Notes: generated by a model not told the origin, from the sequence alone. 64,000 bases of DNA from Ptychomitrium polyphyllum (GCA_973851085.1 OZ316775.1:12524001-12588000); one strand, 5' to 3'; counted from the stretch's first letter, positions 22,026-54,071 are shown. Program-made: numbers and translations.

Positions 22026-24566
22026 TCATATTTCATACAAAGTACTAGATAGTCGTGGAGTGGCTCTCAAAGTCAGAGGCATTGACCTGAAACAGACGAG
22101 CCTCGATGACTCCTGGACGTCGTAGTCGTGAGGAAGTTGCCCTTTGATTGGCGCCCAATCGAAGCCTTGCACGAGGTAAGCCAATCCCAGTTGCAGCAAA
22201 CTAATTCCAAGATTTGCCCCGGGGCATCCTCGGCGACCATACCCAAAGGGTAAAAGCTTAAATTTGTCTATTTGTGATGCTGCGTCTGTACCTGTAAACC
22301 GCGTCGGATTGAAATGGAGCGGATTCTTCCATATTTCAGGATCACGTCCAATGGCTGCGTAGTCAATTACCACGGATGTGTTTGCCGGGATTTCGTACTG
22401 ACCAATTGGAGTTGCGACCTTGTTCATGTGCGGGAGTGACATGGGCACTGTTGGGTGGAGTCGGAGGGTCTCTTTCACAATTGCCTGCACGTCAGCCAGT
22501 TAAAGTCTGAGTAGTTTTAAAAGAAGAGACAACGTCTGGTAATAAGACAACAACCATATTAGAGTTATTAGAGCCAACCTAACAACCTACAAAGACGACT
22601 GATCTTAAGCGGCAACCAAATTCACTTTAAGAATCCAGAAAATACAAGTTGAATATTAAAACTGTCCAACATTTGATTGCCGCCTAGGAAGATCCAAAAA
22701 CATGCTAGAAGACTCACCTGGAAGAGAGAAAGCTGAGAAAATTCGGTATTATCTACGATCTTGTACGGACCGACAAAATCGGCCATTTCCATTTGAACTC
22801 TCTCCAGCAGTGCAGGGTGGCGAACAAGCTCTATAAGAGCCCATTCTATAGTAGCGCTGATTGGATATACGCCTCCTATCAAAGTATCCTGCAAATATGA
22901 ACTCAGCATCCGTCAATGTCTTGTGTGAAGATCTTAAGAACAGATACTAAGGAATAAGAGCCAACAAGGGTGCATACCAAGAGAATGCCCATGATGGCTT
23001 CGTTGGAGAGTTTGTCATCCTCATCTAGTGACAGCAGGACATCCACAAGAGCCTCTGGTTCTCCTTTGTCAAAGCGGTGGGAACGATCTTCAAGAATCTC
23101 TTGAAAATATGCTTTGAGACGTCGATGCAAGTCCTTCATTTTCTCTTCTCGACCACACAAGTCCAGCCACTTTAGCCCAGGTGTGAAGTCGCACAACGTC
23201 ATCTCACCCGCCACAGAAATGGTCTCATCCAGCAACGTGGTCAAGGTGTCCCTGGTAAACTGGATGCTGATATTCTCGATGTCCAGATGTGCCGTGCCCA
23301 ACAACATCCCACATAAGCTGTTGCGTACAAAGGTGGTAACTGTCTCTCGAACAGAGATGTCCTCCCCTCTCTGGGAGGCCTCCCAAATAGAGTGCAACAT
23401 TTTCGCCGCTTCGTTCTTTTGAATGTGTAGATAAGAGTCAGAACAGTCTCGGGAGAATAGACGAGTGTCGCAGAGCTTGCGCAGACACCAATGATGGTTG
23501 CCTTCCCCAAATGCTATGTCCGTGAAATCGAATCCCAAGTGCTTTCCTGCTGAGCATCGCGGCCGAAAGTAAAACTCCGCGTCATGCGCAACAAGCACCT
23601 AGCATAATTTCCAAAACATAGTGCTCAGGATACTTCCATAAACCAAGAGTAATGAAAAGAAACTGTGCTGATGCAATCGAACTTCTAAACCCTAAACCCC
23701 TGTGATCAATTCCAGGCAAGGCAATGGAAAGCTTCACCACGAGTGGCAACGAATGACAAGAATAAACTTGAAAAGACTAATTGCACAGAAGGAATGGTCT
23801 AACATAATTTCGTATCGTTACGCAGCAGCTCGTGAGAACCGCATCATACTACTGTCTATGAATTACGAAAAGTAGTAACAGCTGACGAACTTCCTCAGAC
23901 TATGAGTTAAAAACTCATCCGCACAGATTCAGAGATACTGCTTAACAAAATTTGTGATCGGATATAGGAAGCTCCGCACAACGATGAAGCTGTTTTTTTT
24001 AGTGCTCAATGCTTACCACACGATTTGATCATAAATTCTCACTTGAAGAATTGCAGACATGCATCGAGGGTTCTCGCGACACAAGCTGAAATGCAGAACA
24101 CGAATTATCTTCTTCGGTCTGAAAGAAAGCAAGAAGAGAGACTAATAGAGAGAGGGCTTCCACTGACCTCCTTGGCAAGCTCCCCACTCGAAACGACCAA
24201 AATCGTCGCATCCGCGATTTGCAGAAACATGAGCGGCCCATGCTTCGTGGCGAGTGCGGTGACCTTCTCCCGCAATCTGGACGACGATCTCACACCCGCA
24301 GTCAGGACAAGCTGCGGAAGGCTGCCCAGATAAGGCCACTGGAAAGGCCCGGGCGGCAGCTTCGAAAGCCTCTCTTTCCGCTTGTTATACTGCTCGAAAA
24401 ACACCACCAAGAAAAACACCACTGCTGCCAAGATGTACAACGCCCGCCCCACGCCGGCCGCATTCAGATCCCATCTCTGGTAGCTCTCCACCTGCGCCGT
24501 CATCCACGCCCTGGCCTCCTCCGTTAGCTGCCTTGGCACCCTCCCCGATCCCATCACCTGCGCCAT
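22026..24566 (-). CDS. Cytochrome P450, CYP71 clan (A-type), 4 exons, atypical I-helix
   Basis: Exons 24566-24168, 23598-22978, 22888-22718 and 22484-22026, all joined by GT-AG phase-0 introns. It has a membrane anchor, the LPPGPFQWPYLG hinge, K-helix KETLRLHP, FNPTRF (PERF equivalent) and heme motif PFGYGRRGCPG. The I-helix reads IGGVYPIS. Confidence 0.93.
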
Positions 24567-26388
24567 AACTCCGCAATAAAACTCCCTCCTTCCCCTCCCC
24601 CACACCTCACACGCACTCCCGAATTCAACCCCACCTCCCCGTCGGGCTTATGATCTCACCGCATCCCCAAAAAGCCAAAACTCACGACACCCCTGTCAAA
24701 AACCACAACAGCCATGAGAAACCACGATTCGGTTCCTGTTCCTCGACCACAGGACACGGAATCACGCCAAGCTTCGAAATAGATGAATGTTTCGCATTCT
24801 GTTTCACACTTTTTGAATGGGGGTTCAAAAGAGATGGTCTGTGATTGCGTAACAGAACAAGAAAGTCTAGTACGGCGATATGTGCGCTGTCTGTGCAAGA
24901 TTCGGCCGACCCTCTCGGAGTAGAACATCAGCGATGAGCGATTATGTCGGAACAGTCGCGAAGATTGGGGCTTATTCACAACGTGGGACTTTAGGAAAAT
25001 TCTATAGGCAGCATCTCCGGATCTTTCCACAAACTCGGACGAAACGATTCAATTCTTGTTTCCCCGACCCTCGTGTAGTTCATTTCTACCTTTTCTATGC
25101 TTTATCAAATGCAGGTGCCGCTTGCCATGACTTAGAGACTTCAGTTGCACATCAGATTCCAAGCCGAATCAAGAGGAAGGAAATTGGATCCCGGGCTCGG
25201 AGGCTGGCACGAGCAGGTCTCTTACATTGGGGCATCGGCTCGTTAAAGCATTGCTTCACATCATACAAACCTATAGGTTTTAAAAAAAGTACTGTACACT
25301 CCACAAGAACAATCAATCCATGATAGGATCGCACCCAAGGAATGAGCAGACTGGAGACATTACCAAAACCCTGAACCTCTACTAAAGGCTCCATCCACGT
25401 CCACTTCATTCAATCCTTGCGGTAAGGGAATCAAGACCATACAATTACTGCAAGGATATCGCATTGCAAACGTTTAATCTCACCTCAAAGCTCTTATATC
25501 CAACCACTTATTCACGCTCTGGTCCTCTATTGCAAAATCATGATACTTGTGGATATTCACAACAATGGCACCATTTCAAACTGTACAACCATTTTAGGTC
25601 TACTGCCACTACAATAATAACTAAACTGCACAATAAACTGAATCTAGGGCAACTTCTGCTGATATAGCTAGCAGAATATCCAAACAAATATCCATGCCTG
25701 CTGCAGAAGACAAATATGATCTTCGTACACTGTTGTGACATAGCAAAGCTGGCGTTACAAACCTCGCTGAATCTAGTCAACCAAAAATTTGTTACCCGCC
25801 TGCTTGGATATTCTTGAGGGGCTCATGTCGCAAGTAGAGCTGCGAAGTGTTATAAATACCTGAAGCAACATATGAATGCCGTGGTCAATAACCAGCTCCA
25901 GGTATGAAGCTCAGTAATGTTATCTTTCAGAAACCACTACATTTACAAATTCACTCAGAAGACAAGTCACATACTTAAACTACCACACTAAGTTCATGAA
26001 TTAGCAAGTAGAAATTAAGCCGCATCAGCAAAGATTTAATAACCAAAAACTTTCAAGTACACAGCTTCAAAGATGATGACAGATGATCGTCCTAATCAGG
26101 TGACCTACCTCAGAACACCATAGGATAATCATTAAAAAATGCCTCCCTACAGTACGGTCCTGAAATCAAAACGACAGAAAACATCTACTCACCCCACGGA
26201 ATTCCAAGTAGGTGTTCTTCAATTGTGTTGCCAGAACTACATCCTCCAAATATACCATAGTCCAAGTATACCCCCCAGGGGCAGCACTATATGTCCTGCG
26301 CCAGTACCACGCATTTCTCCTGGGCTCCCATACAGGTACTGACAGCCGCAGCTGGTACACATGTTTGAAGTATCACATTCCCTGGCAA

Positions 26389-27814
26389 TTATATGACAAT
26401 GTTCATATCCAAGTCATCTATAAAGACCCTCCCCATATGCAAGTCATCATGATGTCGAACACACAAGGGAATGTGTTTCTTGTTCAAAGCAGATTGCACC
26501 GCCTTGATGCCCTCCAGAATCTGTGCTTCTCTAGCTGACCGAACTTTGTGCCGTCCACCCGCCCTCTCAATTTGTCTAATATGGTGCATCTCCACATGGC
26601 GTTCGTGACAACCCTTTACTGCACACCTCTCCGCAAGTAGCCCCTTCCGAACCATCCGTGCAAACAGCATGTCGATGAGTTCCTCAGGAGAAGTTGGGTC
26701 TAGATCCACAAGAAACTTCTTCTTATAGTCACTAATCTCCGTGGGGCTTAGATACGCAGCCAGCGTTTTACCCTCCTTCGAAATGACCAAGCTTTTGGTA
26801 TGCTTGGCAATGATCTGACTTGAGCTTGACTTGTGCTTCTTCGCAAGAGTGTAAATAGCTGACCACCGGAGTAGATAATTCACAATAGATCTCACTTTAA
26901 TGAGGTTATCGCAAAACGAGTGGTACCTCAAAAGACCAATTGCAATGCTTCGGTACCATGCGACAATCCGGTAATCATCCTGATTAGCCACTTGATCAAT
27001 TGGCAAAGGTCTCATCTTCACATCGATAAATCCCTTCTTCTGAAGTAACTCGTACAGAAGCTTCACGGGAGCTTCCAATAGAACAGGGGCTTCAAACGGT
27101 CTAACCGTGAGATGTTCCTCGCTAGGGTCATCGCCTTCCAAATGGGAATCATGCTGCGCAACCATAAGCAGCATCCGCGTTTTAAGAGCGTTTTGAAAGA
27201 AAGGAGAATTACCCTGATTCGACACAACCGCCCCTTTCTACCCTCAATCACACATTGAAAACCTAAAAATACATGCTCCTAAGAAAAATCCGAATTCCGA
27301 AACAAAGAAACTCATAGGCTACTTTGCGAACAACTCAACCTGTATATCTCGGTTCTCATCTGTATGAATTCATGAACTCACTCGTGATTCTGGAATCCCA
27401 GCAGGTCGTCTTCCCACTCGAGCTGCTGCAACGTCAGTGTACATCGACCGCTTCACCCCTCCATCCCACGACCTGCTCCACTCACTTCCACATTCCGACG
27501 CGTCGTCACTCCCAGAAACGTTGCTCAAATCCCGCCCCAGCAACGTCAACGCACCCGAGCTCAACGGAGCTGCCGCCTGCCTTCCCCACATTCAATGCAC
27601 CAACTCCGCCACAACCCATCAGCACCCCTCGCTCTCACACCCCTAAATCCTAAATCCTAAACCCTGAACCCTAAACCCTCGAAGGCCCAAACGAAAAAAA
27701 AAACATCCACGAACCCTAACAGTGCACACCAAAGAGCGGCAGGACGAGCACCTGTAATGGAGGCAGCAACGACGATCGCCGCAGCAGCAGCCTCGCAGCC
27801 ATCGCCCTCGCCAT
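26389..27814 (-). CDS. Nuclear-encoded matR-like group II intron maturase lacking the RT domain (domain X plus C-terminal Zn/HNH-like domain) with a mitochondrial presequence; predicted 3 exons, about 360 aa
   Basis: Exon 3 (27213-26389) reads EAPVKLLYELLQKKGFI...DDYRIVAWYRSIAIGLLRYHSFCDNLIKVRSIVNYLLRWSAIYTLAKKHKSS...EGKTLA. This aligns by eye to matR domain X (EAPIKKILRRLRDRGII...CDNLYQVRTIVDHQIRWSAIFT.AHKHKSS...GKTLA). The tail is CAVKGC...VEMHHIR...HIPLCVRHHDDLH. Exon 1 (27814-27752) encodes [21 protein letters not shown]. Exon 2 (27576-27382) joins in phase 0 with GT/AG sites. Confidence 0.85.
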
Positions 27815-27847
27815 GGCCACAGCAAATCGGAAAACCTTGTGAGTGCA
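27381..27847 (-). repeat. Left copy of an inverted duplication (5' UTR, presequence exons 1-2 and intron 1); partner at 31659-32052
   Basis: The reverse complement matches 31659-32052. Exon 1 is 61/63 nt identical, and the exon 2 peptides are 51/65 aa identical. Confidence 0.95.
27641..27679. promoter_or_regulatory. Interstitial telomere-like / telo-box array (CCCTAAA variants, about 5 copies) in intron 1 of the maturase gene
   Basis: ccctaaa tcctaaa tcctaaa ccctgaa ccctaaa ccct; the plant telomere heptamer is TTTAGGG. Confidence 0.65.
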
Positions 27848-28683
27848 GCGCAATGAGCGTCTCTTGCTCCCCAAGTCCCCGCTTCAAGAGGACCCTAGAG
27901 CCTACCCTATTGCCGTTGGACCCCCTTCAATCCAACAGGGATCCCAGTTTTTCCTGTATCATGGTTTCTCATGCTTTTCCTTGGAGATGTGCATGGGCTT
28001 TGCCATCATGCACTTTGAAGATTCCACTAGTAGCTAGCTAACGTTGCTCTTCGTCAGAAAGCAATTGAGAACAATATCACCCAGCCAGGAGAATACCACA
28101 TCTTCTATTTCGCAAGTAGCTGGGGAGCACATGTAGTTTGTCTGCAGAAGCTCCTAGGCTGTTATTGGAATGTTTTTATAGTACTTAAGGGATTCCTTAT
28201 TTTTAGATTCAATAGTTGTGGATTTTTAGAAGAAACGTTTCCTTTCTAGTTATTTTTAAATTTTTTCAAAACCAATCTTTGAATATCTTGGGATTTCTGG
28301 AAAGAGGGGTTAAAAGTCCTGTGATGACGTGTGGAGACGTGTATATTCAAGATCAACAATGCCATTTTGATGCCTCGAAACAAAAAGGCAGGCAGTTAAT
28401 TGCTAGAGCTAAAACATGGTGCAACTGGATTTTTCCATAAATGATGCAAGAGAAGTTTATAAGTTTACAAAGTCATAAACGACATTGGTCTCAAAACAAC
28501 TGAATTTTAATGTAAATTTGACAAAGCCTTGTAATATAATGCACAAGTAAACAATATATTCTGTTAGATTAAAAGCATTGATGTAAAAAAAGTTGTCATT
28601 ACTGTAACATTTGAAAATATGAACGAAGTATTCACTAAACATTCCAATGTCAATTTAGCAAATATGTCGTCAGTGTCTCAAGA

Positions 28684-31274
28684 CTATCTTGTCACCCGAA
28701 CAACCAGCCTGTTCTTCTTGCCTGCAGAAAGTAGAAAAATCTTTTCATCTATAATATCCTCAGCTACCATGGCCTTCCCTTCATCTTCCACCTTCTTGTT
28801 GTTCAAATAAAGACCACCCTGGCAACAGCACACATCCTCACCACTGAGTATTTTACTAGAACTCAAAATCATCAAGAAAACATTACACACCCACTAAGAA
28901 ACATTAGTGTACCCTATGCAAACTGTTTGGAGAAAAAAATCATTCGGATGTATGACCATACCAGGCTTTTAAAACAGAATGTACTATTCACAATACAAAT
29001 GCTCGATTGAAAGATTGAATTCGATACCTGCTTAATCAAACGTCGAGCTGCAGCTTTGCTTTGAACAAGCCCTGTGTTGACACTCAAATCGACCAGAGTT
29101 GTGTCCACCACAGAGGAGTAAGAAACAGAACACGATGGAACGTCCTGAGCAATGGCCTCCAAGGCTTGAGAGTCCAACTCAGCAGCTGCCCCGGGTGCCA
29201 AAGCTTGCGTGGCTTTCAGGGCTTCTGCTAAACCCTGCTCTCCGTGGACAAACCGGGTCACTTCTTCTGCCAATCTTTTCTGTATTGAGTTTGGGGCATA
29301 TCCTGGTCGTCCCATGCTGGATTCCAGAGCTTCAATTTCGTTGATATCAACAAAGGTGAGTCGCTTCATAAACCTGATTACGTCTGAATCAGGTACGGCA
29401 AACAAGAGTTGATAAAAATTATAAGGGGAGAGTGCTGACGAGGCCAGCCAAATTGCACCACTTTCAGACTTCCCGAATTTGGTCCCATCACTCTTGAGTA
29501 GGAGAGGAAACGTAAGACCATAAGCTCCTTCTTGTTGAAGCAACCGTCGAACTAAGTCTGTCCCTGCTGTAATGTTACCCCATTGATCACTCCCACCAAT
29601 TTGTACAGAAACTCCCTCCTCCTGTAGTAAAAACAATCCCATGAGAATTTTACAAAAAACAAGATAGTACTAAATTCGCTTCAACACCAATGCATGCTTA
29701 ATAAAAATAGAGGCTGTTCATATTGGTACCTTGAAGAGATGCACAAAGTCGTATCCCTGAAGCAACTGATAAGTGAACTCCGTGTAGCTCATGCCTTCCT
29801 CTGAATTTAGCCGTGTTTTCACACTTTCCTTCGCCATCATCGTCCCAACTCTTGCATACTTGCCAACGTCCCTTAAGAAATCCAACAGGGAGAATTCCTT
29901 CCACCAATCATAATTGTTAAGAACAACAGCCTTTGCATCCGCACCGGAGTTCACCTGTCAACGTAGTGCCAGATCATGAAGTGCAGAACCAGGATATACC
30001 ACATTAAAAATCACACAAATGCACAATTCCACACGTCAAATATTCCTGCTATTTAAAAGCGTTTGAAAATTTGCATGAAATCCAAACAAGTACCTCCAAT
30101 ATTTTTGCGAGAATCTCGCCAATTCCATTTGAATTCCTGGCTATCGTCTCATCATCAAGCACAGGTCGTTCTTTGCTCTTTCCCGAGGGGTCCCCAACTC
30201 GAGCAGTGGCGCCTCCAAGCAACGCAACTGGGATATGGCCACACCTACACGACAGAATCAGCACGAATTCACCTCAACATGACCACAATCGAACGCTCAA
30301 ACTCCTCTCAACACACTCATATCTACTGAAGAGTACACTCAAAACCCTCCAACACTTCTGCTGACATAACTTGTTACATCACCATCTCTTCAAACAAGCC
30401 GTGAACACGGAACCTTAACCATTCATGAATTTAGAACCCGTTTCTATTCATTATACTGTCAACCACAAACATAACCCCTAACCCCTAGCTAGTACACCAC
30501 TTAGTTATAACTCAGGAGAACAAGTATTTCAAAACAACTTGCTTAAGCTAAGTGAAACACATTGGTAGTGATAAATCAGATAGGTCTGCCATGAGAAGAT
30601 GCAGATCTCCTCAATTATAATCTCACTAACTCATCAAATGCAAATTCGTTATCCGAGACGGAATCCAATTGCGGGGGACAAGAAAACCAGGCATTGCAAG
30701 CAGCAGGACATATCGAGACTCTCGAGAACGAAGTAATCGAAGCTTATCTAGCTCGGAGCAAGGGAGAATGAGATTGATTGGGTCTTGTAACAAACCATTC
30801 GAGAATTCAAAACCTTCCAATAAAACTCAAAGAGTGTGTAATATCAAACCAAGCAAGAGCAAAGCGTACACACCTTTGGAACCACGAGAGCACAATGATG
30901 CCCAGCAAGTTGCCCAAATGCAGCGACTCCGCCGTGGGGTCGAACCCACAGTACACTTTGAGCCGCTGCTTCATACAAGCAGAACGCAACTCCTCGCTCG
31001 TCACGGACTCAATCAACCCTCGCTCCGCCAAAACGTCCACCACATTGCGCGACACGCCTTGCATTGCCACACCCATACACGTTGCCGTGGACAGAGGAGA
31101 CGCGGAGCACGACACCGCGCTTCCCCGCGGCACGCACAATCGACGAGCGACATAGCTTGCGTCCAGAACCTTCACTCCAGCACCAGGTCTCGCAGCAAAC
31201 GCGAGCGACCATAGTCGCAGAGCAGGCCCGCAGGTGTGCGCAAGGCATTGCGACAAGCAATGCCCCGAGGCCAT
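28684..31274 (-). CDS. tyrS: Organellar (bacterial-type) tyrosyl-tRNA synthetase, 5 exons, with N-terminal transit peptide
   Basis: Motifs [15 protein letters not shown] (HIGH), [38 protein letters not shown] (KMSKS) and a C-terminal S4-like domain ([14 protein letters not shown]...SAGKK). Exons 31274-30874, 30244-30094, 29954-29730, 29621-29028, 28818-28684. Confidence 0.96.
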
Positions 31275-31691
31275 GTCGAGGGCGGACACAAAACTTCCAA
31301 TCCTTCACAACCTCTTCTTCCGAAGAACCCAAATCCGAAGAAACACGAGTGCTGTCATCTTTTCCACATTCAGATCGATGTTCGTCGAACATTTGCAAAC
31401 GGGCACCGAAACTCGTCATCGCCGGTAATAAGTGACGATATCCTCTTTTTTAGGGCTTCCTCCGTTAATCGTTCGTTTTATGATGGTTTTCTAGGGTGTC
31501 AGTTTTCAGTCCTGTTGGTGGGACCACTAACTGAGGTGGATTCACTGTTTTGGAAATGCGAGACCATCCCCGCTCCAGTTTTCTGACGAAGGTGTTTTTG
31601 GTTCGGTAGGCAGAGACCATTTGAGGTCACTTCACCTCAGTCAAAGGCCACACCTTGGTGCACTTACGAGGTTTTCCGATTTGCTGTGGCC
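31275..31691. promoter_or_regulatory. Probable bidirectional promoter between divergent tyrS and rps10
   Basis: The start codons at 31274 (-) and 31692 (+) are head-to-head and only 417 bp apart. Confidence 0.6.
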
Positions 31692-32052
31692 ATGGCGAGG
31701 GCGATTGCTGCGAGGCTGCTGCTGCGGCGATCGTCGTTGCTGCCTCCATTGCAGGTGCTCATCCTGCCGCTCCCTGTGTAGGGTTTAGGGTGTGAATGCG
31801 AGGGTGCTGATGGGTTGTGGCAGTGTTGGCTTGGGGACTGCAGGTGAGCGAGCAGCCGAAAGCTCCGTTCAGCTCGGGTACATCGACGTTGCTGGGGCTG
31901 GATTCGAGCAACGTTGCTGGATTCGACCACGCGTCGGAATGTGGAAGTGGGTGGAGCAGGTCATGGGCTGGAGGGGCGAAGCGATCGATGTACACTGACG
32001 TTGCAGCTGCTCGAGTGGGAAGACGACCTGCTGGAATTCCAGAATCTCATGT
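31659..32052 (+). repeat. Right copy of the inverted duplication (presequence exons of rps10)
   Basis: Matches the reverse complement of 27381-27847 and ends at the exon 2 donor (GAATCTCAT|gtaagc versus GAATCACGA|gtgagt). Confidence 0.95.
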
Positions 32053-32692
32053 AAGCAAATCTATCTGAGGACAAACAAACTCAGCAGGTTTCTTCTCCAA
32101 AACTCTTATTTGATATTTGTAGTCCTCGTAGACTGGTTGGAACATGATTAGGGTTTCCTCTACTTGGACTAGAGGGCATCTTCTCAATAAATTTGTTTCT
32201 GTTATTCGAACATGCCGTCAGAACTGTACCAAGTCCTGGCAATCTGAGTATGTCCAGGCTGTAACTTAGCAGGTGGATGCACTTGATGGCATCGAAGAGA
32301 TGGCCGCGGGCTCCGGAGCAACCGCCAAAATGTCTATAGTGTTGAAGTCATTCGAGAAGATCCATCCAGGGAAGTTAAAGAACGTCAGTAAAGTGGGCTT
32401 GCCAACAACGCGAATCCTCTTCACTTTCAACCGATCTCCTCATGTGGACAAGAAGGCGCGAGACCAGTTTGAGATGAAAACACGGAAGAAGCTTCTAGTC
32501 ATGGATATGGATGTTGGGAAGCTACGGGAGAAGTACAACCAGCTGAAGAACAACAACATGTTGGGCGTCCAGCTCAAAGTGAACTTTCATTATAAAACTC
32601 GACTGGACATGAGCAGGATTAAGGGTCATGTCACGCTGGCAACGGTCGTGGAACAGTGTGAGGAACAAAGGCAGATCGAAGCAAAGCAATGA
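31692..32692 (+). CDS. rps10: Nuclear-encoded mitochondrial ribosomal protein S10 with acquired presequence, 3 exons
   Basis: Exon 3 (32273-32692) contains KMSIVLKSF...[29 protein letters not shown]...[16 protein letters not shown], the plant mitochondrial S10 signature RSPH.DKK.R.QFE. Exon 1 (31692-31754) encodes [21 protein letters not shown]. Exon 2 is 31856 (or 31844)-32050. Introns are phase-0 GT-AG. Confidence 0.92.
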
Positions 32693-33831
32693 GATGAGAG
32701 CTTCGAAGGCCTCCTCTGAGCTCTCATCAGTTCACAGATTGGAGCGAATGATTTGCAGGTATACATGAAACTACTGGAGATTGAATACTTTGGTCTTCAC
32801 TGCAGCAAAATATTCACTTGCTGTTCAGCATAATCAGGTATCTGGCTTTCAAGTCTTTGGTGCATCCATATAGGACATTTTTTTGAAGATTAGGAGTAGA
32901 AAAAGAGCCGCAGTTAACCTTGAGGATTGATTTGTTTGGTTCTTTAGGTGTCATCAATTGGATTGTAAAGCATGCCCAGATGCTTAGAACAGATACTACA
33001 CTTGGTGTGCATGAAGTTGGTTCTCAAGATTACGATAAACATCAATTCAGTCTAGTTTCATGTTTGTGTTGTTGTGAGTTTCAATGGTTTGATCGAGCCT
33101 TTCCAGTTGCTGGTTTTTATGTTCTATCCTATATGTGATAATGCCTTTGTTGGCATAGTATATTTAGCCGTTTTCTTTGTTGTGATGGTTGTTTGTCAGC
33201 TGTCAATTTCGTAGATTCTGTCGAATGTGCATATATGTGCGATGTTTACTGCTGGTTATGTTTCACATTGAAAATTTACAGAGCTCTTGAACTCTGCCTT
33301 GGCATTGCAGAAGCATAAGTAGTTGAATTTGTGTACACCTTTCTCAACTCTGACTCCCTTCTGCATTGCGAAACCTTCCTTTTGCAACACTGTTAGATTC
33401 GTTTACCAGCATACTACTGAACGTAGATCACTGTTAGGATGGAAGGATTAATGGAAACTTCAACCTGGGAAGAGCGAGCATGACGGTGTAGGGAATAAGT
33501 TTGTTTCGCGTAGTTGTGTTTAACAGAGTTTTCAGTTCCCAAGAGCCAGTTGTTCAATGTATCATGCTTGGGCGTGCACCACGTAGAAGCAGTTTTCATG
33601 TGGTAATTTATTGGCAAACTGAAGGTTCTTTGACGGAAAGTTTGGTTTTACGGAGAAAGTTCAACTACCAAACTTTAGTAAACTGGGAAGCATTAGCCTA
33701 ACCCGGCAAACTTCTTTAATCTTGACACCATCAAGTACTGTGGTGAAGAACAAACTGCATTTAATTAACTTCAATATTACTTATTACATTCAAAACTCCT
33801 CATTTGCCTATTAGACTAACTTGTTGCCTTG

Positions 33832-34000
33832 AACTCCTTTACCTAAGCCTATACAACCACTAACTTGTAGAACTTGCTCCAACTCCTTTACCTAAGCCTA
33901 TACAACCACTAACTTGTAGAACTTGCTCCACTAACTTGTAGAACTTGCTCCAACTCCTTTACCTAAGCCTATACAACCACTAACTTGTAGAACTTGCTCC
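33832..34000. repeat. 49-bp tandem minisatellite, 3 perfect copies plus one 22-bp partial
   Basis: Unit aactcctttacctaagcctatacaaccactaacttgtagaacttgctcc at 33832, 33881 and 33952; partial actaacttgtagaacttgctcc at 33930-33951. Confidence 0.95.
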
Positions 34001-34851
34001 ACAGGAAAAAAAATTATATATATGTGTGGTTTTTCCAAGAAAGGAACAATTCTCTCTTGATGTGACACCCCAGACTATACCACCACTAACGTTGCCACCT
34101 TCATGATGATTTTTTCTCACTTTGGACCTTGACAGCCCCACGTCACCTTCCAATCCCTTGCAAGATCATTCCAACTGGCGTGAACCTCTAAGTTTCAGGA
34201 TCTTACACAAGAAGTCCAGCATGCCATCCTATTTAGGCTAAGTCACACAAACTCAGCAATCTCAAGCTCAAACTACACCACCCGGTGAGGTGCCCCTAAA
34301 AGCCACAAAGGGAAAACTTTTTGAAACGCCACTCAAGGTGGACCTTATCGCATGAGCGAGGGCAAGGCGAGGGGCTCAGGTGGTCACGGCTGAAGCTTAG
34401 CACACGGCGCCCCTTCAGTTCTGTGGAATGTGGAATCAATTTGCCGCGGAAGGGCCCGTGCGGTGTTGGCTAGGCTATGGCCACTGCAGGTCTCCATACC
34501 ATCGCCCTTGCCCGGAGAACGTTTCACGATTTTCATTGCATCCCGCCACACAAGTGACTCGCACGCGAGCCTCCACCACACTGATTTCTTTCTTACTTGT
34601 AGCATGCACTTGCTGATTGCTTACTGCTTTCTTGCGTTCCTTATGTCGACATACCTGCAAACACACCTCTCTCTGTGACAACTAAGTTAAGTAGAGCGAA
34701 TTGACATGGCGTAGATCATTTTGTTGGTCATTGCTTAGCAGTGTATGCATCTCCGAGAAGATATTGAAGAACGAAAGGCAAGGCAGGGGCTTATGAGGGC
34801 GCGAGCGAGCCAGCTAAGGGGAGAGTGATGTGGGGTCGTTAGGGATCTTCA

Positions 34852-37800
34852 ATGCCTCCAGTCTCTAGTTTGGTGGGACCTTGCGGTCGTCGATCAAGTA
34901 AATCAGCTCTGCAATTCGGAATTTGTGTAGCCAATGCAACATGGGGACATCACCTGCAATACAGGTGGGCTGCTGCATGTTCGTTGGAATGGAGCTTCAG
35001 ATGGAGTAGCTCTCATCAGCTGAGGAGTAAATGGGTTGTCGATCGAAAACCTCCTGCCACCAGGCGGGGGACAAAATCAACAGTGAAGGGGAGACATGAA
35101 ATTAAGAACAGAGAGTCTGCTTCGCATGTGGCACTTGCACCATTTGGAGGCTCTGCACCTTATTATTCCAAAGTACGCACTAGTGGGCGGGGGCAGAGAG
35201 CGCGGAGGGATACCCCTGGAAGCGCACCATTCCAGAGGGAAGAGGAGGACAAGAGCTCTTCGGAGGCACCGGAGAATGAGTCTGGCAGCCGGGGCTTGAC
35301 AGCTCGGAACCTGGTTGGGACGTATGCCGCGAACACAGCATTGGCAGTACAGGAGTCTCTTCCGCCGGAGGGAGTGATCGTCTTGTTGGCGTGCCTTGTG
35401 GGCGTTCTCACGGGTGGCAGTGTCGTCCTCTTCAATCTTGCGGTGAGCTGTTGCTATGTGTCCCACTCATCTTCAATTCCTTCTGTTAATTGATTTGGAT
35501 TTCAAGCTCCAGGACCTGCGCATGAATCAGTCTTATGTTAGTCAATCCGGGACCCCGGGCAAGCTCCTAGTATTTCATCTTTTTCCCGCGGCGTTTTCTA
35601 AATGGGGGAGGCTTTAGGGTTTTAGCCTGTGTGGAGATGAATGATGGTTTCATAGGGATGGCTGTGGTTGAGATTTAGGTACACAGGATCCACGATGATG
35701 TGTGGGAGGGAATCCCGGAAAGCGGAGCTGCTTGGTTGCGAACACGGCCACTGAACGAAACTTGGGTGCGACTCTTGGCGGTGCCATTTGGGGGTGGGGT
35801 GCTGGTGGGACTCCTTAACTCGATGCGCCATTCATTAGACAACGACACCAAGACTGACAAGTCTAAGGCAAAGGACAAATCCTCCCGGTTGGATGATTTG
35901 CGTGGCGTTCTCCGAGCCTTTCTGAAAGCTGTAGGCGCTGCCGTCACTCTAGGAACCGGGTGCTCCCTCGGTCCTGAAGGCCCCAGCGTTGAAATTGGCG
36001 CCTCCATCGCCAATGGCGTGGGCACAATGCTGAGTAATAGTCGCGAACGCAAGCTGTCGCTGGTTGCTGCTGGCTCCGCTGCAGGCATCTCCTCAGGTTT
36101 AATTACTCAAATGCTCCTTCCCATCTACAACATTCGTTTTTATTTTATTTTCTTCTATTAGATGGACTGTTCTAGAAGAACTACTGCAAAGTTGGTCAAT
36201 TCAAAGATGTGCTGCATTGTCAGTGCTGCATTCTCTTTTGTATTTTGCCTTTGTAGAAGAGACGTCACATGTACTAACATCTTCGTCTGCTCGGGATGTC
36301 AGGGTTCAATGCGGCTGTGGCAGGATGCTTTTTTGCACTAGAATCAGTGTTGCGGCCTTCGTCCTCAGACTCGGCATCGTCGCTCACCACAGCCATGCTG
36401 TTGTTGAGCTCTGTTCTGGCTAGTGTCATTTCGCAGGCTGGATTGGGGTCCGACCCTGCATTTAAGATCCCTGCATACGACTTCCGCTCACCTGCTGGTA
36501 TACTCGACCTTCACCTGTGAATTTTGCTGGACTACAATTCTGCACCAAAAAAAGAGATTAATACATTATTGTGTGTGTATATTTCCAACATTAGTCTACA
36601 GCGTCATTAGAGTAGGCACAATCTGCAACCTGTGAACATTTATAATGTGATTTGAAGCTTAGAGATACAGCTGTCTTTGCAAAGACACTATAATCGTTGT
36701 ATATTCGTGTGTAATGAAACAGAACTTCCGTTGTACCTGCTGTTGGGAATCCTTAGTGGCAGTGTGTCAGTGACTCTTGTCAAGGGGAGTGCATATGCAA
36801 CAACCTTGTTTGAGAATTTGAGAAGAACCACCGGAATTCCGGCAGGCTTCCTGCCACCAGTGGGAGGGCTGGCAGTGGGCGTGATTGCGCTGGCATATCC
36901 GGAAATACTGTACTGGGGCTTTGAAAATGTGGACGTTCTATTAGAATCACGCCCCTGGGTGCGAGGTCCGTCGGTGGAATTGCTACTGCAATTGGTTGGG
37001 GTTAAAGTGATTGCAACTTCGCTGTGTCGCGGTTCGGGGTTGGTGGGCGGGATGTATGCTCCGTCACTGTTTATTGGAGCTGCATTGGGGTCAGCATATG
37101 GAAGCATTGCCAGGAATGTCTTCGTACATGCCGATCCTGCGTTCCATTTGGAATGGCTCAAGGTCGCTGCCCCTCAAGCCTATGCATTGGTAAGTTATTA
37201 AGGACTGTTAACTTCGTTAAATGCACCTTTACTTTATTATTATTGATGCTGCATTGCAATCTTTGAATGTCACGGCTATGAATGTAGACACTAGCTGCTG
37301 ATAGTGCGCATTACGGCCATGTGCAGGTGGGCATGGCAGCCATGTTAGCTGGAGTATGCCAAGTCCCACTCACATCCGTCTTGCTTCTGTTCGAGCTTAC
37401 TCGAGATTACCGTATTATTCTGCCTCTCATGGGTGCAGTAGGTCTATCATCCTGGATTGCATCCTCGTTCATCAAGAAAAAGAAACGCTCCTCGAAATCT
37501 GAATCTGCCCTTCCGTTGCCATTGTCTGCACCTGTCTTGCAACCTCAGCCAGGCATCGCATTTGAATCTTCTTCTGTGCTGTATCCCAATGCTCCCAGCC
37601 AACAGAGTCTCTTGAGCAGTAGTGTCGTAGGAAATGAGGGTCTTCAAATCACCTCGGAGGAAGGCCAAGAGCCAATGCTTCTGGCTTCGATGGAGATGAA
37701 GGTGGATGTTTACACGAACGACGGGAGTGCCGAAGACTTTGTGGAAGAGAAAGATTTGTGTAACGTTGATGAGTCCCTCTGTTTAGCAAATTTTGAGATC

Positions 37801-38670
37801 AGCGAAGAGAAGTTGGCAGAGGAGATACTGGTATCCATGGCTATGAGGACGAGATTCGCCACTTTGCCTCCAGAATCAACGGTGCGAGAGGCAATGTCAG
37901 CCATGGTGCTGGAGAAACAGTGGTGTGTGCTTCTGCTGGACTCAAATCGGCGCCTTTCAGGTCTTTTAACTTTGGCAGATATTCAGCAAGCTGCAGGGAA
38001 TGCTACAAGTGTCAATCTGCAGATGAAGGTTTGATTTTTTTTTCCAGAGAAGAGCCTCTTCTATATGCATGTCGTACTGTCAGCGTCAGTCTGTTCATAA
38101 CCATTTCTTATGGTGTGGAGATCATTACCGTTGCTTTGGACCCCCGACGCCTACTGTACGCCTGCAGCGGTGCGTACTGGGTCTTTGCAATCCTCATTTC
38201 TCTAAAGTAGAATAAGTTATTTTGTTTTTGCAGATAGAAAACAAGCTAGTGTCCACATTATTCAAGAGCAGGCGGCTGCAGCAAGTGGTAACAGCAACAA
38301 AAGACATGAGCTTAAGAGCTGCACAACATCTTATGGCACGGCGTGGATTGAGGCAAATCCCTGTAGTGGATGTTAGCCAACGAGTAGTCGGCCTCTTGGA
38401 CAGAGACTCCATTGCTCTTGCTTGCCGGTTAGAGCTCATTCTTCAATTATCAGTGGATGAGGCTTAGTGAACTGGTTCAACCTTTCACTTCATTGTAGTC
38501 TTAACTGTAAAATACCATGTTCTTAGGTGACAAGCCTTACAGGCATGACACTCGTGCCTGGAACTTGTCGCTGAGGCGTGTGGTTGGTTTGCAGGGCGGA
38601 GGCCACGCGCAGATTGTTGGGTCTTTCCCTTTGTACAACAGCATCGAAGGGCTCTAACGAAGGCCTTTGA
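34852..38670 (+). CDS. CLCe: CLC chloride channel, prokaryote-like CLC-e/f subfamily (closest to thylakoid CLC-e), with C-terminal CBS domains
   Basis: Motifs TLGTGCSLGPEGPSVEIG, AAGSAAGISSGFNAAVAGCFFALESVL, YDFRSPAELPLYLLLG, YPEILYWGFENVD, GLVGGMYAPSLFIGA and GVCQVPLTSVLLLFELTRDY, plus a CBS pair. Long Ser/Arg-rich N-terminal transit-like region. The last exon ends TGA at 38670. Confidence 0.9.
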
Positions 38671-42947: not shown

Positions 42948-43900
42948 ACTAATCAAACCATACCTCGTTAATATCAAGATTATACAGACGTTTTTGAAAG
43001 AATAATGCGGACATGTTACCAAAGCATGAGCCTTATAATTGTGCAATTGAGTTGCAAAAAGGACCCCAACCACCTTTTAGACCTATCTATAATCTATCAC
43101 AAACCAAGTTGACTGCCTTGAAAGAATATATTGATGAAAACCTTGGAAAGGGCTTCATTCAACATTCTAAATCTTCTCCTCAAGCATCCATCCTATTAAA
43201 GAAGATGGATGGATCATTATATATGTACGTGGACTATCAAATCATCAAAAAAGTGACCAAGAAGGATTGCTATTCATTATAATTAATATCAGGACTTTTA
43301 CAGCAACTTGGCCAAACATAGATATTCACCAAAATTGATCTTAGAAGAGCCTACAATCTTGTATGCATCAAAGAAAGAAATGAATGGAAGAAATTTTTTG
43401 ATCCAGGTATGGTCATTTTGAATATAATGTCATGCCTTTAGACCTTATTAATGCCCTTGCAATCTTCCAACACATGATGAACAATATCTTTCATGAACAC
43501 TTGGAAAATTTTATAGGCATCTACTTGAATGACATTTTGATATATTCAAAGAATCAACAAGACCACGAATGTTATGTGCGCTTGATCTTAGAAAAACTAT
43601 GCCAGCAAGGATTATATGCCAAATTAAAGAAGTGCCTTTTCCAAAAATCTTTGGTTGAAGTTTTAGACTACATCATTTCCAAAAAAAAAATCCATATGGA
43701 CGAGAAGATAATAAGCACTATCATGGATTGGAGTACACCAAGATTAATTTGAGATGTTCAATGCTTCTTGGAAATTGCAAACTTCTACAAAATATTCTCC
43801 AAGGATTTTCCCAAGATTGATGCAGTATTGATTCGTCTTACCGGGAAGCAAAAATTTCATTAAGAATAAAGAGGCGGAAAGTGCATTTTAAGGTCTTAAG
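42948..43900 (+). mobile_element. Degraded Ty3/Gypsy pol (RT) fragment, cut at 43900 by insertion of a same-family element
   Basis: LPKHEPYNCAIEL...[15 protein letters not shown]...YLNDILIYSK (YLDD equivalent), with several stops. Confidence 0.9.
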
Positions 43901-46900
43901 TGTCATAGACATAGATCATACAAACTAGTGTTTAGAACCTTCTAGAACCTTCTAATATATCATAGTAGCTTCTTAGAATACTTTCAAATGTCTCCAAAGT
44001 CATTTATACGTTTCTGGAAAATCTCCTATGAAGGTTTAGCCACCTCAGATAACTTCCTAGAAAGGTTTCAATTCATTAGGAAAACGTCCTAAGAAAGTTC
44101 TACCACCTTGAGAAATTACTAGGAAAGGTTCCAATTCTTTGGAAGCTTCTTAAGAACGTTCCAATATCTTAGAAAAACTTCTAGGGAAGGTTCCATAGAC
44201 TTTTAGAACATTCTTAAGCCTTGTAGGAAGCTTCTTTAAAAATAAAATGGCTGAACCTTCATAGGAGGTCTGGCAAGACTATTCTTCATCTTTGTCAGCA
44301 CTAAGGTTCTTTAAAGAAGATTGTAGATTATCCATCTTCTTTAGGATTCCACAATGTCTTTGAGGTTGCGGCTTACCTAATTTTAAATTAACTAGATCTA
44401 AAATTGGTTGATTCTTCTAAAATCAAGTACTATTTCTTTTGAAGAAGTATCAATCTTTTAAAAGATATCAACTACCTTCCTTTGAAGGTATTCATAATCT
44501 TCTTGTCTTTGACAATCTTAAGAAATGGATAATATGCCTGGAACATCTCAAAAAAAGATTTGCAACTATTGCAGACCTTCATGAGTTATTAAACATAGTT
44601 CAAACGGAAGTCTCTAGCTTCAATACTACCAACAGATTACAGCAGCATACTTATCAAGCCAAAAAATCCAATGGTGATATTCAAAGTTTATATCAAGAGG
44701 TTGTGTAATTATAAGAGGCCAATATTGGAAGAGAAGGCTTACGTAAAATCCATGTAGAGCCAAAGATTAGCATGCCTAATAAGCTTGATCGATCAAGATC
44801 AAAGTTAAGAGGCTTTGTTCAACAAGTAAGTTTCTTTCTTAATTTGTATCAATCTTGCTATCTTGATGGCACAACTCAAGTGGAATTTATAGCCACTCTT
44901 TTATCAAACAACGCACTATTGTGGTTTGCATCCTTAATGGAAAAGCAGTCACCATTGTTGAACAACTTAGATGCTTTTATAGAAGCATTGGCATCTACTT
45001 TTGAAAACACTAATTGAGAGAAGGTGGCTGAAACAAGGATCTAGAGTCTACAACAAAAACAGCACTCAGCTGCTACATATGCTACAGAGTTTCAACAACT
45101 AACTTGCGACCTCGATTAGAATGATAAGGCCTTGGTCACACAATTCCAATGAAGCTTAAGAAATAATGTGAAGGACTTGCTACTTACAGTGCCAAGAATT
45201 GAAACATTGAACGAATTCATCACTCAAGCAATAGCATGTGACAATAATCTATTTGAGAGGCGCCAAGAATAATGCTTGGAATGGCGACCAGTACATCAAA
45301 GTATGGCAATTACTTCTTCAAAAGTGTTGAAAAGCTGACCAAAAGAACCAAAACCTATGCAAATTAATGCTGCCCAATTTAGACGTTTGGTTCCAAAAGA
45401 AAAAGAAAGGCGTCAAAGAGAAAACCTATGTTTGTATTGTGGCAAATCTGGACATAAAGTGCACGATTGCCAAATCAAAGGATCTGCCTTTAAGGCTCAA
45501 AGCACAATGGTGGAGTTGGAAAACGAGGCTATTCAGTCACAATAGGGACCATGCGATTGGACACTACAAGGAAACCACCATCAAATCAAGGTCTCTTATT
45601 ACCTTCAAGCCCTACCTCTTGTTTTACATTTCCTATCAAAATTAAATTGTTAGATGATGAAATAGTTAGTGAAGCTCTTTTAGACACTGATGCAACGATA
45701 TGTTTCATGAATAAGAATTTTGCAATCAAACATCACATAGTGCTTATGAACAAAAAATTTCCCGCACTTGTTGAAGATATTAATGGACGACCTATCGCAT
45801 CTAGCAAAGTTACTTAAGAAACTCAACCCTTGCAGATTGTTTTGGGCGACAAAGCATCTAAGATTGTTTTCAACATCATTCATTGCCAAATAAATTCTAT
45901 TATCTTGGACCTTTCTTGGTTTGAATTACATAATTCAGACATTGAGTGGTGTCACGGAGTGTAGTCTTAAGGAAAAGCCGTCAAGATACAAAAAATCTTG
46001 GACCATCATTTATTGGAGCTAAAGCATTCATGAAAGCGGCAAAAGATGAATCAATCAATGCCATTTATGCCACATCAATGTCCCGCTCAATAATAGACAA
46101 TAAACAAAGCATACCTCGTCAATATCAAGATTATAAAAACGTTTTTGAGAAGAAAAATGCAGATATATTACCTAAGCGCCGGCCTTACAATTGTACCATT
46201 GAGTTGTTAGTAGGAGCCCAACCACTTTTTGGACCTATTTATAACTTATCACAAAATGAGTTGACCGTCTTGAGAAAATATATTGATGAAAACCTCGGAA
46301 AGGGCTTCATTCAATATTCTAAATCACTTGCTGGAGCATCCATTCTATTTATAAAGAAGAAAGATGGACCATTATGTATGTGCATGAACTATCCACGCCT
46401 CAATAAAGTGAGCTAGAAGAATTGTTATCCATTACTATTAATCTCAAGACTTCTACAGCAACTTGGACAAGCAAAGATATTTACCAAATTAGATCTTATG
46501 AGAGCTTACAATCTTGTACGTATTAAAGAAGGAAATGAATGGAAGATAACTTTCCATTTTAAGTATGGCCACTTTGAGTACAATGTCATGCCTTTTGGCC
46601 TTACTAATGTCCTTGCAGTCTTCCAGCACATGATGAACAATATCTTTCATGAACACTTGGACAATTTTGTAGTCATTTACTTGGATGATATTTTGATATG
46701 TTCAAAGAATAAACAAGACTACAAATGTCATGTGTGCATGATCTTAGAAAAGCTATGCCAGCAAGGATTATATGCCAAATTGGAAAAGTGCCTCTTTCAT
46801 GAATCTTTAGTTGAAGTTTTAAGCTATATCATTTTTAAAGGAGGAATCTATATGGATGAGAAGAAAATAAGTATTGTCATGGAGTGGAGTAGGCCATGAT

Positions 46901-47022
46901 CAATTTGAAATGTTCAATGCTTTTTGGAAATTGCTAACTTTTAAAAAATATTCATCAAGGAATATTTCAAAATTGCGGCACTATTGACACGTCTTATGGG
47001 GATGAAAAATCTCACTTGGAAT
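43901..47022 (+). mobile_element. Truncated Ty3/Gypsy chromovirus copy: partial 5' LTR, PBS, gag, protease and RT
   Basis: Starts TGTCATAGACATAGATCAT, like the LTRs at 48030 and 54072. The gag has a CLYCGKSGHKVHDC zinc knuckle, the protease has LLDTDAT and the RT has YLDDILI. There are many stops, and the copy ends within RT. Confidence 0.9.
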
Positions 47023-48029
47023 GGAGACTCTATCATGCTGTACATAGTTACTTGACTTAAAACTTAGCTAATATGTTTTATTTTGTGGATTTTGATTTAT
47101 TGTGTTTTAAAAAGGAGTATCAAGATGGAATGAGAAGTTAGGTGAAAAGGATTGTGGTAAAACAACAATTTTGAGTGTCTTGGAGGTAGAATTGCATTTT
47201 GTCTTAACTCAGGTGAAGGCGCCGGTTGACTAGCAAGTGTCGCCATTCTAGTCAACAAATTTAAGGAGAATTGAACTCGGACCGCTTCTGCAGCTAAACT
47301 TTATCTAGTTAACCAAGTTTGTGGCTTGGTATTTAATTCTATCTCAACAGTGACTTTATATTCAATGAACTTCAATCTATTACCTGTTTTTTTCCTTTTA
47401 TTTTAGTTTTATTTTCCTACTTTAAATTTGTGAGGATTGGTTTTGCCTTCTATTGTAGTTTTGAACCTAGAAGCTTCAACCAAAGGACAGAAAAGAAAGA
47501 AAAGCAAAAAATAAAGATTTAGATTGTTTTTTATTTGAAGATATGGTAAGATAAGGGCTTGATAAAGGAGATTAGGGGCTGATGTGGAGATATAAGGCTA
47601 ATGTAGAGTGATAAAAGGTGAATGTAGCAGTTTGACCACCACCCTCTTTTATTCTCTTGGCCTCTTTTACTTGTTACTTAAGGCAGTCCTTTCTTTGACC
47701 ATATTTCATAGCTTACTTCTTAGTTTGAGTTCTTTTTGTTGTCTTTTCTTAATTTCTTTGTTAGCTCTTCAAAATGATATTACACGCTTCATTTGGAATT
47801 AATATGTGACCGTGGCTCTTGTTTGAGTGAAGTTAAGTCAACTACCTTGAGTTTCATGGAGCAGTTGCTTTGGATGCTTATAACTTCTTGAGTAATTAGA
47901 AATTGATAATGAAATTTGCAAGATAATAATTTGATCAATTCAAAATGATATTCTAAAACTTTGAAAAAAAAAAAAACTTATATAGTGAAAGATATAAACA
48001 AAAATGTAGCTAGGACTTTGAGAGCTATA

Positions 48030-48672
48030 TGTCACGGATATAGATCATGCAACATAGTCCTTAGAACATTCTAGAACCTTCTAGGATACTATGATAGCTT
48101 CTTTGAATACTTTTAGATGTCTTTATAGTCTTTCCATGTTCTTAGGAAGCTTCCTAGAAAAGTCCCCCACTTTAAGAAACTTCCTAGGAAGGTTCCATCA
48201 TCTTAGGCAGCTTCATAGGAAACTTCCTTGGAAGGTTCCATCATCTTTGGAAACTTCCTAGGAAGGTTCTACTTCTTTAAAAAACTTCATATGGGATTCC
48301 ATCATCTTAGGAAATTTCCTAGGAAGGTTCTACTTCTTTAGGAAACTTCCAAGGAAGATTCCAACTCCTTGGAAGACTCTTAGGAAGGTTCCAACATTTT
48401 AGGAAACTTCTTGGGAAGGTTCCCTAGACTTCCAGAACATTCTTAAGCCTTGTAGGAAGCTTCTTTAGAAGTATTCTAGGAGATACAAACGTCATAGTAT
48501 AAATAGGAGGTGAGACAAGGTATTCCTTAGTCTTGCCAACACAAGTTGTGGATCATCTTGAATCCTGCCTTGTTCTAGTCTTTGTATCAAATTCTTGTTA
48601 ATCATTAGCTCTTTGGAAGCTAATTCTTGGGAAACACTTCGTTTCTGCTTCTTGTTTCTTGTATCCCTAACA
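48030..48672 (+). repeat. 5' LTR with internal tandem AAACTTCCTAGGAAGGTTCC-like units and a TATA box at 48498
   Basis: Direct repeat of 54072-54610; TGTCA...TAACA termini. Confidence 0.95.
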
Positions 48673-53989: not shown

Positions 53990-54071
53990 CAAATTTTGGA
54001 ATTTGTAGAAATGTGATAAGCAAGCCAAGAAAAGAGCTCCTCATGGGACTCGTCGCTAAATGGGGAGGTGA

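What the first reader, a model, noticed from the sequence alone, without database searches (positions are those of the whole stretch)
27381..32052. One mitochondrial targeting module duplicated as an inverted repeat serves two mitochondrion-derived genes (rps10 and the maturase)
Seen: 27381-27847 (-) and 31659-32052 (+) are inverted homologs. They cover ~35 bp of 5' UTR, exon 1 (MARA[I/M][16 protein letters not shown], 61/63 nt identical), intron 1 and a 65-codon exon 2 (51/65 aa identical, including KRSMYTD, a plausible processing-site context). Homology ends at the exon 2 donor. Each copy then splices in phase 0 to a different organelle-derived coding exon. Inference: a mitochondrial-derived sequence was activated in the nucleus by local inverted duplication of a neighbour's presequence exons, i.e. 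exon shuffling preserved ~4 kb apart. The high identity implies a recent event or gene conversion.
Basis: partly seen in the sequence, partly recalled or inferred. Interest (0 to 1): 0.88.

Follow-up and report, generated by a model that had tools for sequence, protein, structure and literature searches.

The report
Moss genes keep re-copying targeting exons
In a moss nuclear genome, two unrelated genes of mitochondrial origin (ribosomal protein S10 and a shortened intron maturase) sit about 4 kb apart and begin with inverted copies of the same first two exons, a predicted mitochondrial address tag that is old and has likely been re-copied from rps10 onto the maturase more than once.

Summary
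The arms 27382-27847 (-) and 31659-32050 (+) are inverted homologs (exon 1 61/63 nt; exon 2 51/65 aa). Similarity stops at the exon 2 donor, and the run contigs show only two copies. The models give a 229-aa Rps10 and a 340-aa maturase with domain X and an HNH-like tail but no RT. The maturase groups with the broken ORF of the moss mitochondrial atp1 intron.

The duplication is not recent. Ceratodon has both genes a few loci apart with the same module, and a deeper moss has the same three-exon maturase. Sphagnum rps10 carries the module, while its nuclear maturase has an unrelated N-terminus. So rps10 is the likely donor, and the event was likely a presequence swap rather than first activation.

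The high identity likely reflects later homogenisation. Modules group by lineage, not by gene (AU p=0.005), and synonymous distance between the copies is 0.15 against 1.9 between maturase orthologs. Splicing and import were not tested directly. Presequence borrowing is known; recurrent homogenisation between unrelated genes was not found in nine literature searches.

The parts
26389..27153 (-). Maturase exon 3: domain X (PF01348) plus HNH-like C-terminal tail, 254 codons, no RT domain
   Evidence: Pfam E 3.7e-17; matches LtrA 419-576; acceptor position fits orthologs
27154..27381 (-). Maturase intron 2, 228 nt, GT-AG, phase 0; not similar to rps10 intron 2
27382..27576 (-). Maturase exon 2, 65 codons; copy of rps10 exon 2 lacking its first 4 codons
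27577..27751 (-). Maturase intron 1, 175 nt; homologous to rps10 intron 1 at both ends, with extra telo-box-like repeats
27752..27814 (-). Maturase exon 1 coding part, 21 codons; arginine-rich, no acidic residue
27815..27847 (-). Shared 5' leader, 31/33 identical to the rps10 copy; outer end of the left arm
28684..31274 (-). Tyrosyl-tRNA synthetase gene with N-terminal extension, lying between the arms, head to head with rps10
   Evidence: PF00579 and PF22421; start and stop
31659..31691 (+). Shared 5' leader of rps10
31692..31754 (+). rps10 exon 1 coding part, 21 codons
31755..31843 (+). rps10 intron 1, 89 nt, GT-AG, phase 0
   Evidence: acceptor chosen by match to P0059 and P0058
31844..32050 (+). 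rps10 exon 2, 69 codons; predicted presequence end and likely mature N-terminus
32051..32272 (+). rps10 intron 2, 222 nt, GT-AG, phase 0
32273..32692 (+). rps10 exon 3: uS10 domain (PF00338), 139 codons
   Evidence: Pfam E 4.5e-10; homologs

Best explanation
Nuclear rps10 and a neighbouring RT-less maturase gene carry inverted copies of the same leader and first two exons, a predicted mitochondrial presequence that was likely copied from rps10 onto an already nuclear maturase early in moss evolution and has likely been re-homogenised by gene conversion at least twice since. Each gene is predicted to splice exon 1 to exon 2 to its own exon 3. The N-terminus would direct import and be cut near the KRSMYTD motif. 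Rps10 would replace the gene lost from the moss mitochondrion. The maturase (domain X plus HNH-like tail) would act in trans as a splicing factor, most likely on the atp1 group II intron whose own ORF is broken. Because the arms stayed close and inverted, intrachromosomal conversion or crossover can overwrite one with the other without damaging either gene body. Selection on the Rps10 mature N-terminus would favour tracts that run from rps10 to the maturase. Shown: the repeat, its limits, the copy number, the shared module in other mosses and the tree pattern. Inferred: splicing in this species, import, cleavage, conversion as the mechanism, the order of events and the target intron.
For: Age: Ceratodon maturase P0002/P0027 and rps10 P0058 both have the module and neighbouring locus tags (KC19_1G024300 and KC19_1G025000; M758_1G023300 and M758_1G023800). 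L001 (74% identical maturase) has the same two phase-0 introns. Direction: the Sphagnum rps10 N-terminus matches the module (z 6.1-7.4 in 4 of 4 comparisons) and the Sphagnum maturase N-terminus does not (z -1.5 to -0.6 in 4 of 4). Homogenisation: at 11 columns where Ceratodon maturase differs from rps10 orthologs, the window maturase has the rps10 residue at 8, the maturase residue at 0 and another at 3; 5 residues are shared only by the two window copies among the rows compared. The module tree pairs the window copies (92/90) and L001 maturase with P0066 rps10 (84/67); AU rejects one maturase clade at p=0.0054 and p=0.0071 without the mixture model. dS between copies is 0.15 against 1.9 for the maturase body versus L001. 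Splicing, indirectly: P0059, P0058, P0011 and P0013 read across both rps10 junctions, and P0001, P0021, P0023 and P0024 across the maturase exon 2/3 junction. Origin: nuclear maturases and the broken ORF in the atp1 intron of mitochondrial contig L015 form a 100/100 clade. Physcomitrella mtDNA lacks rps10 and has this intron without an ORF (PMC5654404, Table 1).
Against: The module alignment is short (93 columns) and neither lineage pair reaches starred support. The window event alone is rejected only at p=0.033, in a test chosen after seeing the tree. L001 and P0066 are both long branches, and that they come from the same lineage is assumed from their similar distances (74% and 80%), not shown; the rps10 tree leaves P0066 unresolved. 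No DNA of Ceratodon was available, so the window-Ceratodon dS was not measured. Linkage is shown only by locus tags in Ceratodon and by an equal longest-contig length for P0025 and P0010; orientation there is unknown. Sphagnum is the only outgroup, so its maturase N-terminus could be the derived one.
Confidence: 0.65

Rival explanations
1. The rps10 module activated the maturase when it first reached the nucleus in the moss ancestor, and Sphagnum later replaced it. Homogenisation happened as in the best explanation.
For: Only one outgroup lineage was seen. The X-only paralogs fall outside the clade of the mitochondrial pseudogene plus this gene (90/78), so separate transfers are possible.
Against: It needs a loss of linkage and a complete 5' replacement in Sphagnum. 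The Sphagnum gene has four exons with an unrelated N-terminus, and no rps10 or TyrRS hit within 10 kb on either side in L005 and L007.
Confidence: 0.2
2. No conversion: the rps10 5' end was duplicated onto the maturase independently in several lineages, each time replacing the older copy.
For: Gives the same lineage-wise tree. The arm ends are sharp.
Against: The same exon limits and phases recur in the window, Ceratodon and L001. Identity is patchy within the arm (leader and exon 1 about 96%, exon 2 87%, intron 1 with indels), which fits tracts of different age better than one copy.
Confidence: 0.1
3. A single recent duplication activated the maturase in this lineage.
For: dS of 0.15 between the copies.
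Against: Orthologs in Ceratodon, P0021 and L001 already have the module, and the maturase body is strongly conserved across mosses (64-90% identity).
Confidence: 0.02
4. The repeat is an assembly artefact or a dispersed element, or the maturase copy is not used.
For: Short-read contigs break in the identical 37- and 44-nt tracts, so they do not fix the orientation of the middle 3.9 kb.
Against: Each arm lies on its own contig joined to its own exon 3 at single-copy depth. Both frames are open. Codons 42-65 of exon 2 show dN 0.03 against dS 0.24 (binomial p 0.011-0.073).
Confidence: 0.03

Closest known systems
Presequence gain by duplication of an existing targeting signal (rice rps11-1 from atp2, Arabidopsis sdh3 from hsp70, carrot rps10 from hsp22; as summarised in PMC2631504, passages read; the original papers were not read)
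   Same: A gene of mitochondrial origin uses 5' exons copied from another nuclear gene for a mitochondrial protein.
   Different: Here the likely donor is itself a transferred gene, donor and recipient stay about 4 kb apart in inverted orientation, the recipient probably had a presequence already, and the copies appear to be re-homogenised over long times.
Shared presequence by alternative splicing (rice and maize rps14 within sdh2; PMC2631504, passage and reference list)
   Same: Two unrelated mitochondrial proteins begin with the same targeting exons.
   Different: There one physical copy serves both by alternative splicing. Here there are two copies in two divergent transcription units.
Nuclear-encoded maturases (nMAT1-4 of angiosperms; nuclear maturase loci of Physcomitrella reported by Guo and Mower 2013, known here only through PMC3927076, section 12)
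   Same: Free-standing nuclear gene derived from a mitochondrial group II intron ORF, with domain X and a predicted targeting signal.
   Different: It has no RT domain at all, keeps an HNH-like tail, is limited to mosses in these searches, and groups with the atp1i1128/1129g2 ORF rather than with the sources of nMAT1-4. The Physcomitrella ortholog may be among the loci of Guo and Mower; this could not be checked.
Concerted evolution of inverted gene copies by gene conversion (general knowledge, recalled)
   Same: Paralogous stretches more alike within a species than between orthologs.
   Different: It involves only the 5' targeting exons of two otherwise unrelated genes.

Membership tests
Presequence acquired by duplication | 5' exons homologous to those of another nuclear gene, with homology ending at an intron or exon boundary | tested here: met
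Presequence acquired by duplication | Gene body of mitochondrial origin, lost or broken in the mitochondrial genome | tested here: met
   Maturase groups with the broken atp1-intron ORF of L015; rps10 absent from Physcomitrella mtDNA (PMC5654404). The window species' own mtDNA was not examined.
Presequence acquired by duplication | The N-terminus directs import into mitochondria | not testable with these tools
   Only composition: net charge +4 and 0-1 acidic residues in the first 30; no TargetP or GFP test
Presequence acquired by duplication | The duplication was the step that activated the transferred gene | tested here: inconclusive
   The Sphagnum ortholog is nuclear with another N-terminus, which favours replacement; single outgroup
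Nuclear-encoded maturase (nMAT) | Domain X | tested here: met
   PF01348 E 3.7e-17
Nuclear-encoded maturase (nMAT) | RT domain, even if degenerate | tested here: not met
   No RVT_1 hit in full-length P0002 or P0046; no maturase-RT tblastn hit in the window; the exon model leaves no room
Nuclear-encoded maturase (nMAT) | Free-standing gene with spliceosomal introns, outside a group II intron | tested here: met
   GT-AG introns, nuclear neighbours
Nuclear-encoded maturase (nMAT) | Promotes splicing of mitochondrial group II introns | not testable with these tools
   needs a knockout
Concerted evolution by gene conversion | Paralogous copies group by lineage rather than by gene | tested here: met
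   AU p=0.0054; subsets p=0.004-0.033; branch support moderate
Concerted evolution by gene conversion | Discrete conversion tracts shown at DNA level against close relatives | not tested
   No DNA of close relatives could be fetched; only patchy identity within the window pair
Dispersed repeat or transposon | Many copies in the genome | tested here: not met
   Two copies at 80% likeness in both runs; no assembly was available for a search below 80%

The most novel reading that the evidence does not exclude
For most of moss history, two unrelated organelle-derived genes have been held together as an inverted pair whose targeting exons are repeatedly overwritten from rps10, so that a ribosomal protein's address tag and intron 1 keep being imposed on an RT-less, endonuclease-tailed maturase that splices the atp1 intron in trans. 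Crossovers in the arms would also flip the TyrRS gene between them without breaking either gene.
Probability: 0.4. Interest if true: 0.7.

Novelty: new variant of a known kind. Interest (0 to 1): 0.52.

Why it matters
Borrowed presequences are usually seen long after donor and recipient have drifted apart. Here both stay side by side, so the fate of a borrowed presequence can be followed across a whole plant class. The case also warns that near-identity of donor and recipient does not date a gene transfer, and that a presequence can be swapped on a gene that was already active. It names a short, RT-less maturase with a specific candidate target (the moss atp1 intron) that can be knocked out in Physcomitrium or Ceratodon. 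That would test whether domain X without RT is enough for splicing in trans.

Tried and rejected
No whole genome is held for this window. No RNA holder was listed, so junction reads were not seen. A search with exon 2 alone among longer proteins returned 1 weak hit among 92 candidates, an rps10, and no third gene with the module; this is a weak search. None of the 18 metagenome loci had an rps10 or TyrRS hit; L001 holds only 2.3 kb upstream of the match, so it says nothing on linkage. The X-only paralogs P0084 and P0085 show no significant match to the module (z 0.1-1.8 in 4 of 4), although a look-alike motif had suggested one. A split maturase with its RT half nearby was considered: no maturase-RT hit in the window; the RT ORFs at 43-59 kb lie among retroelement domains. 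The AlphaFold model was poor (pLDDT 51) and Foldseek gave no match at E 0.001 or below, so neither is used. DNA similarity between the L001 5' region and the window module was limited to telo-box-like repeats. The Ceratodon and P0021 maturase modules do group together once the window and L001 rows are removed (55/66), so homogenisation is not evident in every lineage. Three look-ups of earlier findings returned nothing.

Full report
Observation. The two arms are real inverted homologs (204 nt at 87%, 114 nt at 96%, 28 nt at 93%; reciprocal blastn E about 1e-93, next hit E 0.25). Exon 1 is 61/63 nt identical; the 195-nt exon 2 core is 170/195 nt and 51/65 aa identical. Similarity starts 33 nt before the ATG (31/33), is absent further upstream (11/53) and ends at the exon 2 donor (15/42 in intron 2). 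Contigs of two runs from one sample tile 24000-35000 with no listed differences. Laid at 80% likeness on the rps10 arm they show two copies (depth 111.8 = 56.7 + 55 in X1) and two short contigs at depth 3. No listed piece spans the whole locus, and contigs break in the identical 37- and 44-nt tracts, so the orientation of the middle 3.9 kb rests on the window assembly.

Gene models. The minus gene has exons 27814-27752, 27576-27382 and 27153-26389 (340 aa). The plus gene has exons 31692-31754, 31844-32050 and 32273-32692 (229 aa). All four introns are GT-AG and phase 0. Exon 3 of the plus gene is uS10 and exon 3 of the minus gene is maturase domain X; a TyrRS gene lies between. No RNA holder was listed, so splicing is supported only through relatives. 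P0059 is 229 aa and matches the rps10 model at 196 of 229 positions without gaps, which favours the upstream acceptor. The maturase copy lacks the first four codons of exon 2. P0001, P0021, P0023 and P0024 read across the maturase exon 2/3 junction. P0021 is seen on 16 contigs up to 21.7 kb, which suggests that intron 2 is lost in that moss (inference). The first 30 residues have net charge +4 and 0-1 acidic residues, which fits a mitochondrial presequence by general knowledge; no predictor was available.

What the maturase is. It has domain X and a Cys/His tail that aligns with LtrA 419-576 (E 0.0008), but no RT. Seven close clusters were found among 479 candidates of 140-448 aa. An unrestricted profile search of 50% representatives found one orthologous cluster (485 bits), four X-only relatives among the top six rows, and RT-bearing algal maturases from 212 bits down; a longer member could hide behind a representative. 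Locus L015, a mitochondrial contig, has a group II intron in atp1 (Rfam Intron_gpII at 10616-10681) with a broken ORF 45% identical to the query. In a 43-row tree the nuclear genes and this pseudogene form a 100/100 clade. The intron sits about 1142 nt into that atp1 frame, which I equate with atp1i1128g2/atp1i1129g2, the single atp1 intron listed for mosses (PMC5654404 Table 1; PMC13662536 passage). That table shows Physcomitrella without mitochondrial rps10 and this intron without an ORF. A role in splicing this intron in trans is an inference.

Age and direction. Ceratodon purpureus has both genes with neighbouring locus tags in two annotations and both carry the module. P0025 and P0010 share a longest-contig length of 442,433, which suggests linkage in a third moss (inference). 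L001, a maturase 74% identical to the window's, has two upstream exons in the same phases. Sphagnum rps10 matches the module (z 6.1-7.4 against 1000 shuffles, 4 of 4 pairs); the Sphagnum maturase, nuclear and RT-less with four exons, does not (z below 0, 4 of 4). L005 and L007 show no rps10 or TyrRS within 10 kb on either side. So the module is older on rps10, and the simplest history is that it replaced the maturase's earlier 5' end after the split from Sphagnum. With one outgroup, replacement in Sphagnum instead cannot be excluded.

Homogenisation. The window's maturase module is closer to the window's rps10 (71/86) than to Ceratodon maturase (48/80, 51/80) or P0021 (32/60). The L001 module scores 90 against P0066 rps10 and 30-48 against four other rows. 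Of 11 columns that separate Ceratodon maturase from rps10 orthologs, the window maturase has the rps10 state at 8, the maturase state at 0 and another at 3. Five residues are private to the two window copies among the rows compared, and nine to L001 plus P0066. The 12-row module tree (the Sphagnum maturase and two paralogs were left out as unalignable) pairs copies by lineage, and AU rejects one maturase clade (p=0.0054). Subsets chosen afterwards give p=0.033 for the window event, p=0.004 and 0.014 for the L001 event, p=0.007 without the mixture model, and no rejection for Ceratodon plus P0021. dS is 0.15 between the window copies against 1.9 (L001) and 2.9 (Sphagnum) for the maturase body. 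Whether L001 and P0066 were homogenised with each other or simply kept the old state while the lineage leading to Ceratodon and the window was homogenised, at least one event besides the recent one is needed. Limits: short alignment, unstarred lineage pairs, long branches, and the assumption that L001 and P0066 share a lineage (one search does not resolve it).

Mechanism. Two close inverted copies can exchange sequence by intrachromosomal conversion, or by crossover that inverts the TyrRS segment and swaps 5' ends, without cutting either gene body (general knowledge). The segment after the predicted cleavage site is conserved in rps10 as far as Sphagnum and drifts in Ceratodon, P0021 and L001 maturases, so tracts from rps10 to the maturase would be tolerated more easily than the reverse. 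In the window, codons 42-65 of exon 2 show dN 0.03 and dS 0.24, and codons 1-41 dN 0.18 and dS 0.15, which fits selection on the processing region in both copies (binomial p 0.011-0.073).

Comparison with the literature. Presequence gain by duplication and sharing by alternative splicing are established (PMC2631504, passages; PMC8317393, passages). Nuclear maturase loci in Physcomitrella are reported (PMC3927076, passages and section 12; PMC10012718, passages). Guo and Mower 2013 and Kadowaki 1996 were not read and are cited second-hand; the former, or supplements of PMC10012718 that I did not open, may include this maturase. PMC5664110 (passages) has nothing on mosses or maturases. Nine searches listed no paper on a shared rps10/maturase presequence in mosses or on conversion of presequences between unrelated genes, judged from titles and abstract starts; the library lacks most subscription journals.

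Verdict. The feature is real and is a new variant of a known kind. The 'recent activation' reading should give way to an old, probably replacing duplication with recurrent homogenisation. Interest 0.52.

Noticed in passing
proteins P0082, P0084-P0086, P0231: A second family of RT-less maturases with domain X only, ending before the HNH-like tail; it falls in the same 100/100 clade as the atp1-intron ORF. Organisms unnamed.
   Followed up: partly
L009:7582-8287, L010:5526-6234, L011:9810-10485: Broken copies (43-48% to the query; stops and frameshifts seen in L009 and L011) of the Sphagnum-type maturase at another locus; probably a pseudogene duplicate.
   Followed up: partly
protein P0021: Exon 2 and exon 3 sequences are contiguous in a protein seen on contigs up to 21.7 kb, suggesting loss of maturase intron 2 in that moss.
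   Followed up: no
window 27620-27700 and 31775-31790: Telo-box-like repeats in intron 1 of both copies, expanded in the maturase copy; also present in the 5' regions of L001 and L005.
   Followed up: partly
window 27577 versus 31840-31855: The maturase copy lacks 12 nt at the start of exon 2 between two identical 4-nt words, as expected of a microhomology deletion or an acceptor shift.
   Followed up: partly
window 31274-31692: TyrRS and rps10 start codons are about 420 nt apart, head to head; three genes with likely organellar products cluster within 6.3 kb.
   Followed up: no
window 33808-33998: Local direct repeat, three copies of 71 nt with 49- and 71-nt spacing.
   Followed up: no
window 43402-58482: Fragmented retroelement ORFs: RT, Ty3 capsid, integrase, RNase H.
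   Followed up: no
window 22026-24647 (-), 34843-38442 (+), 3112-3540 (+): Neighbouring genes: cytochrome P450, CLC chloride channel, prolyl oligopeptidase.
   Followed up: no
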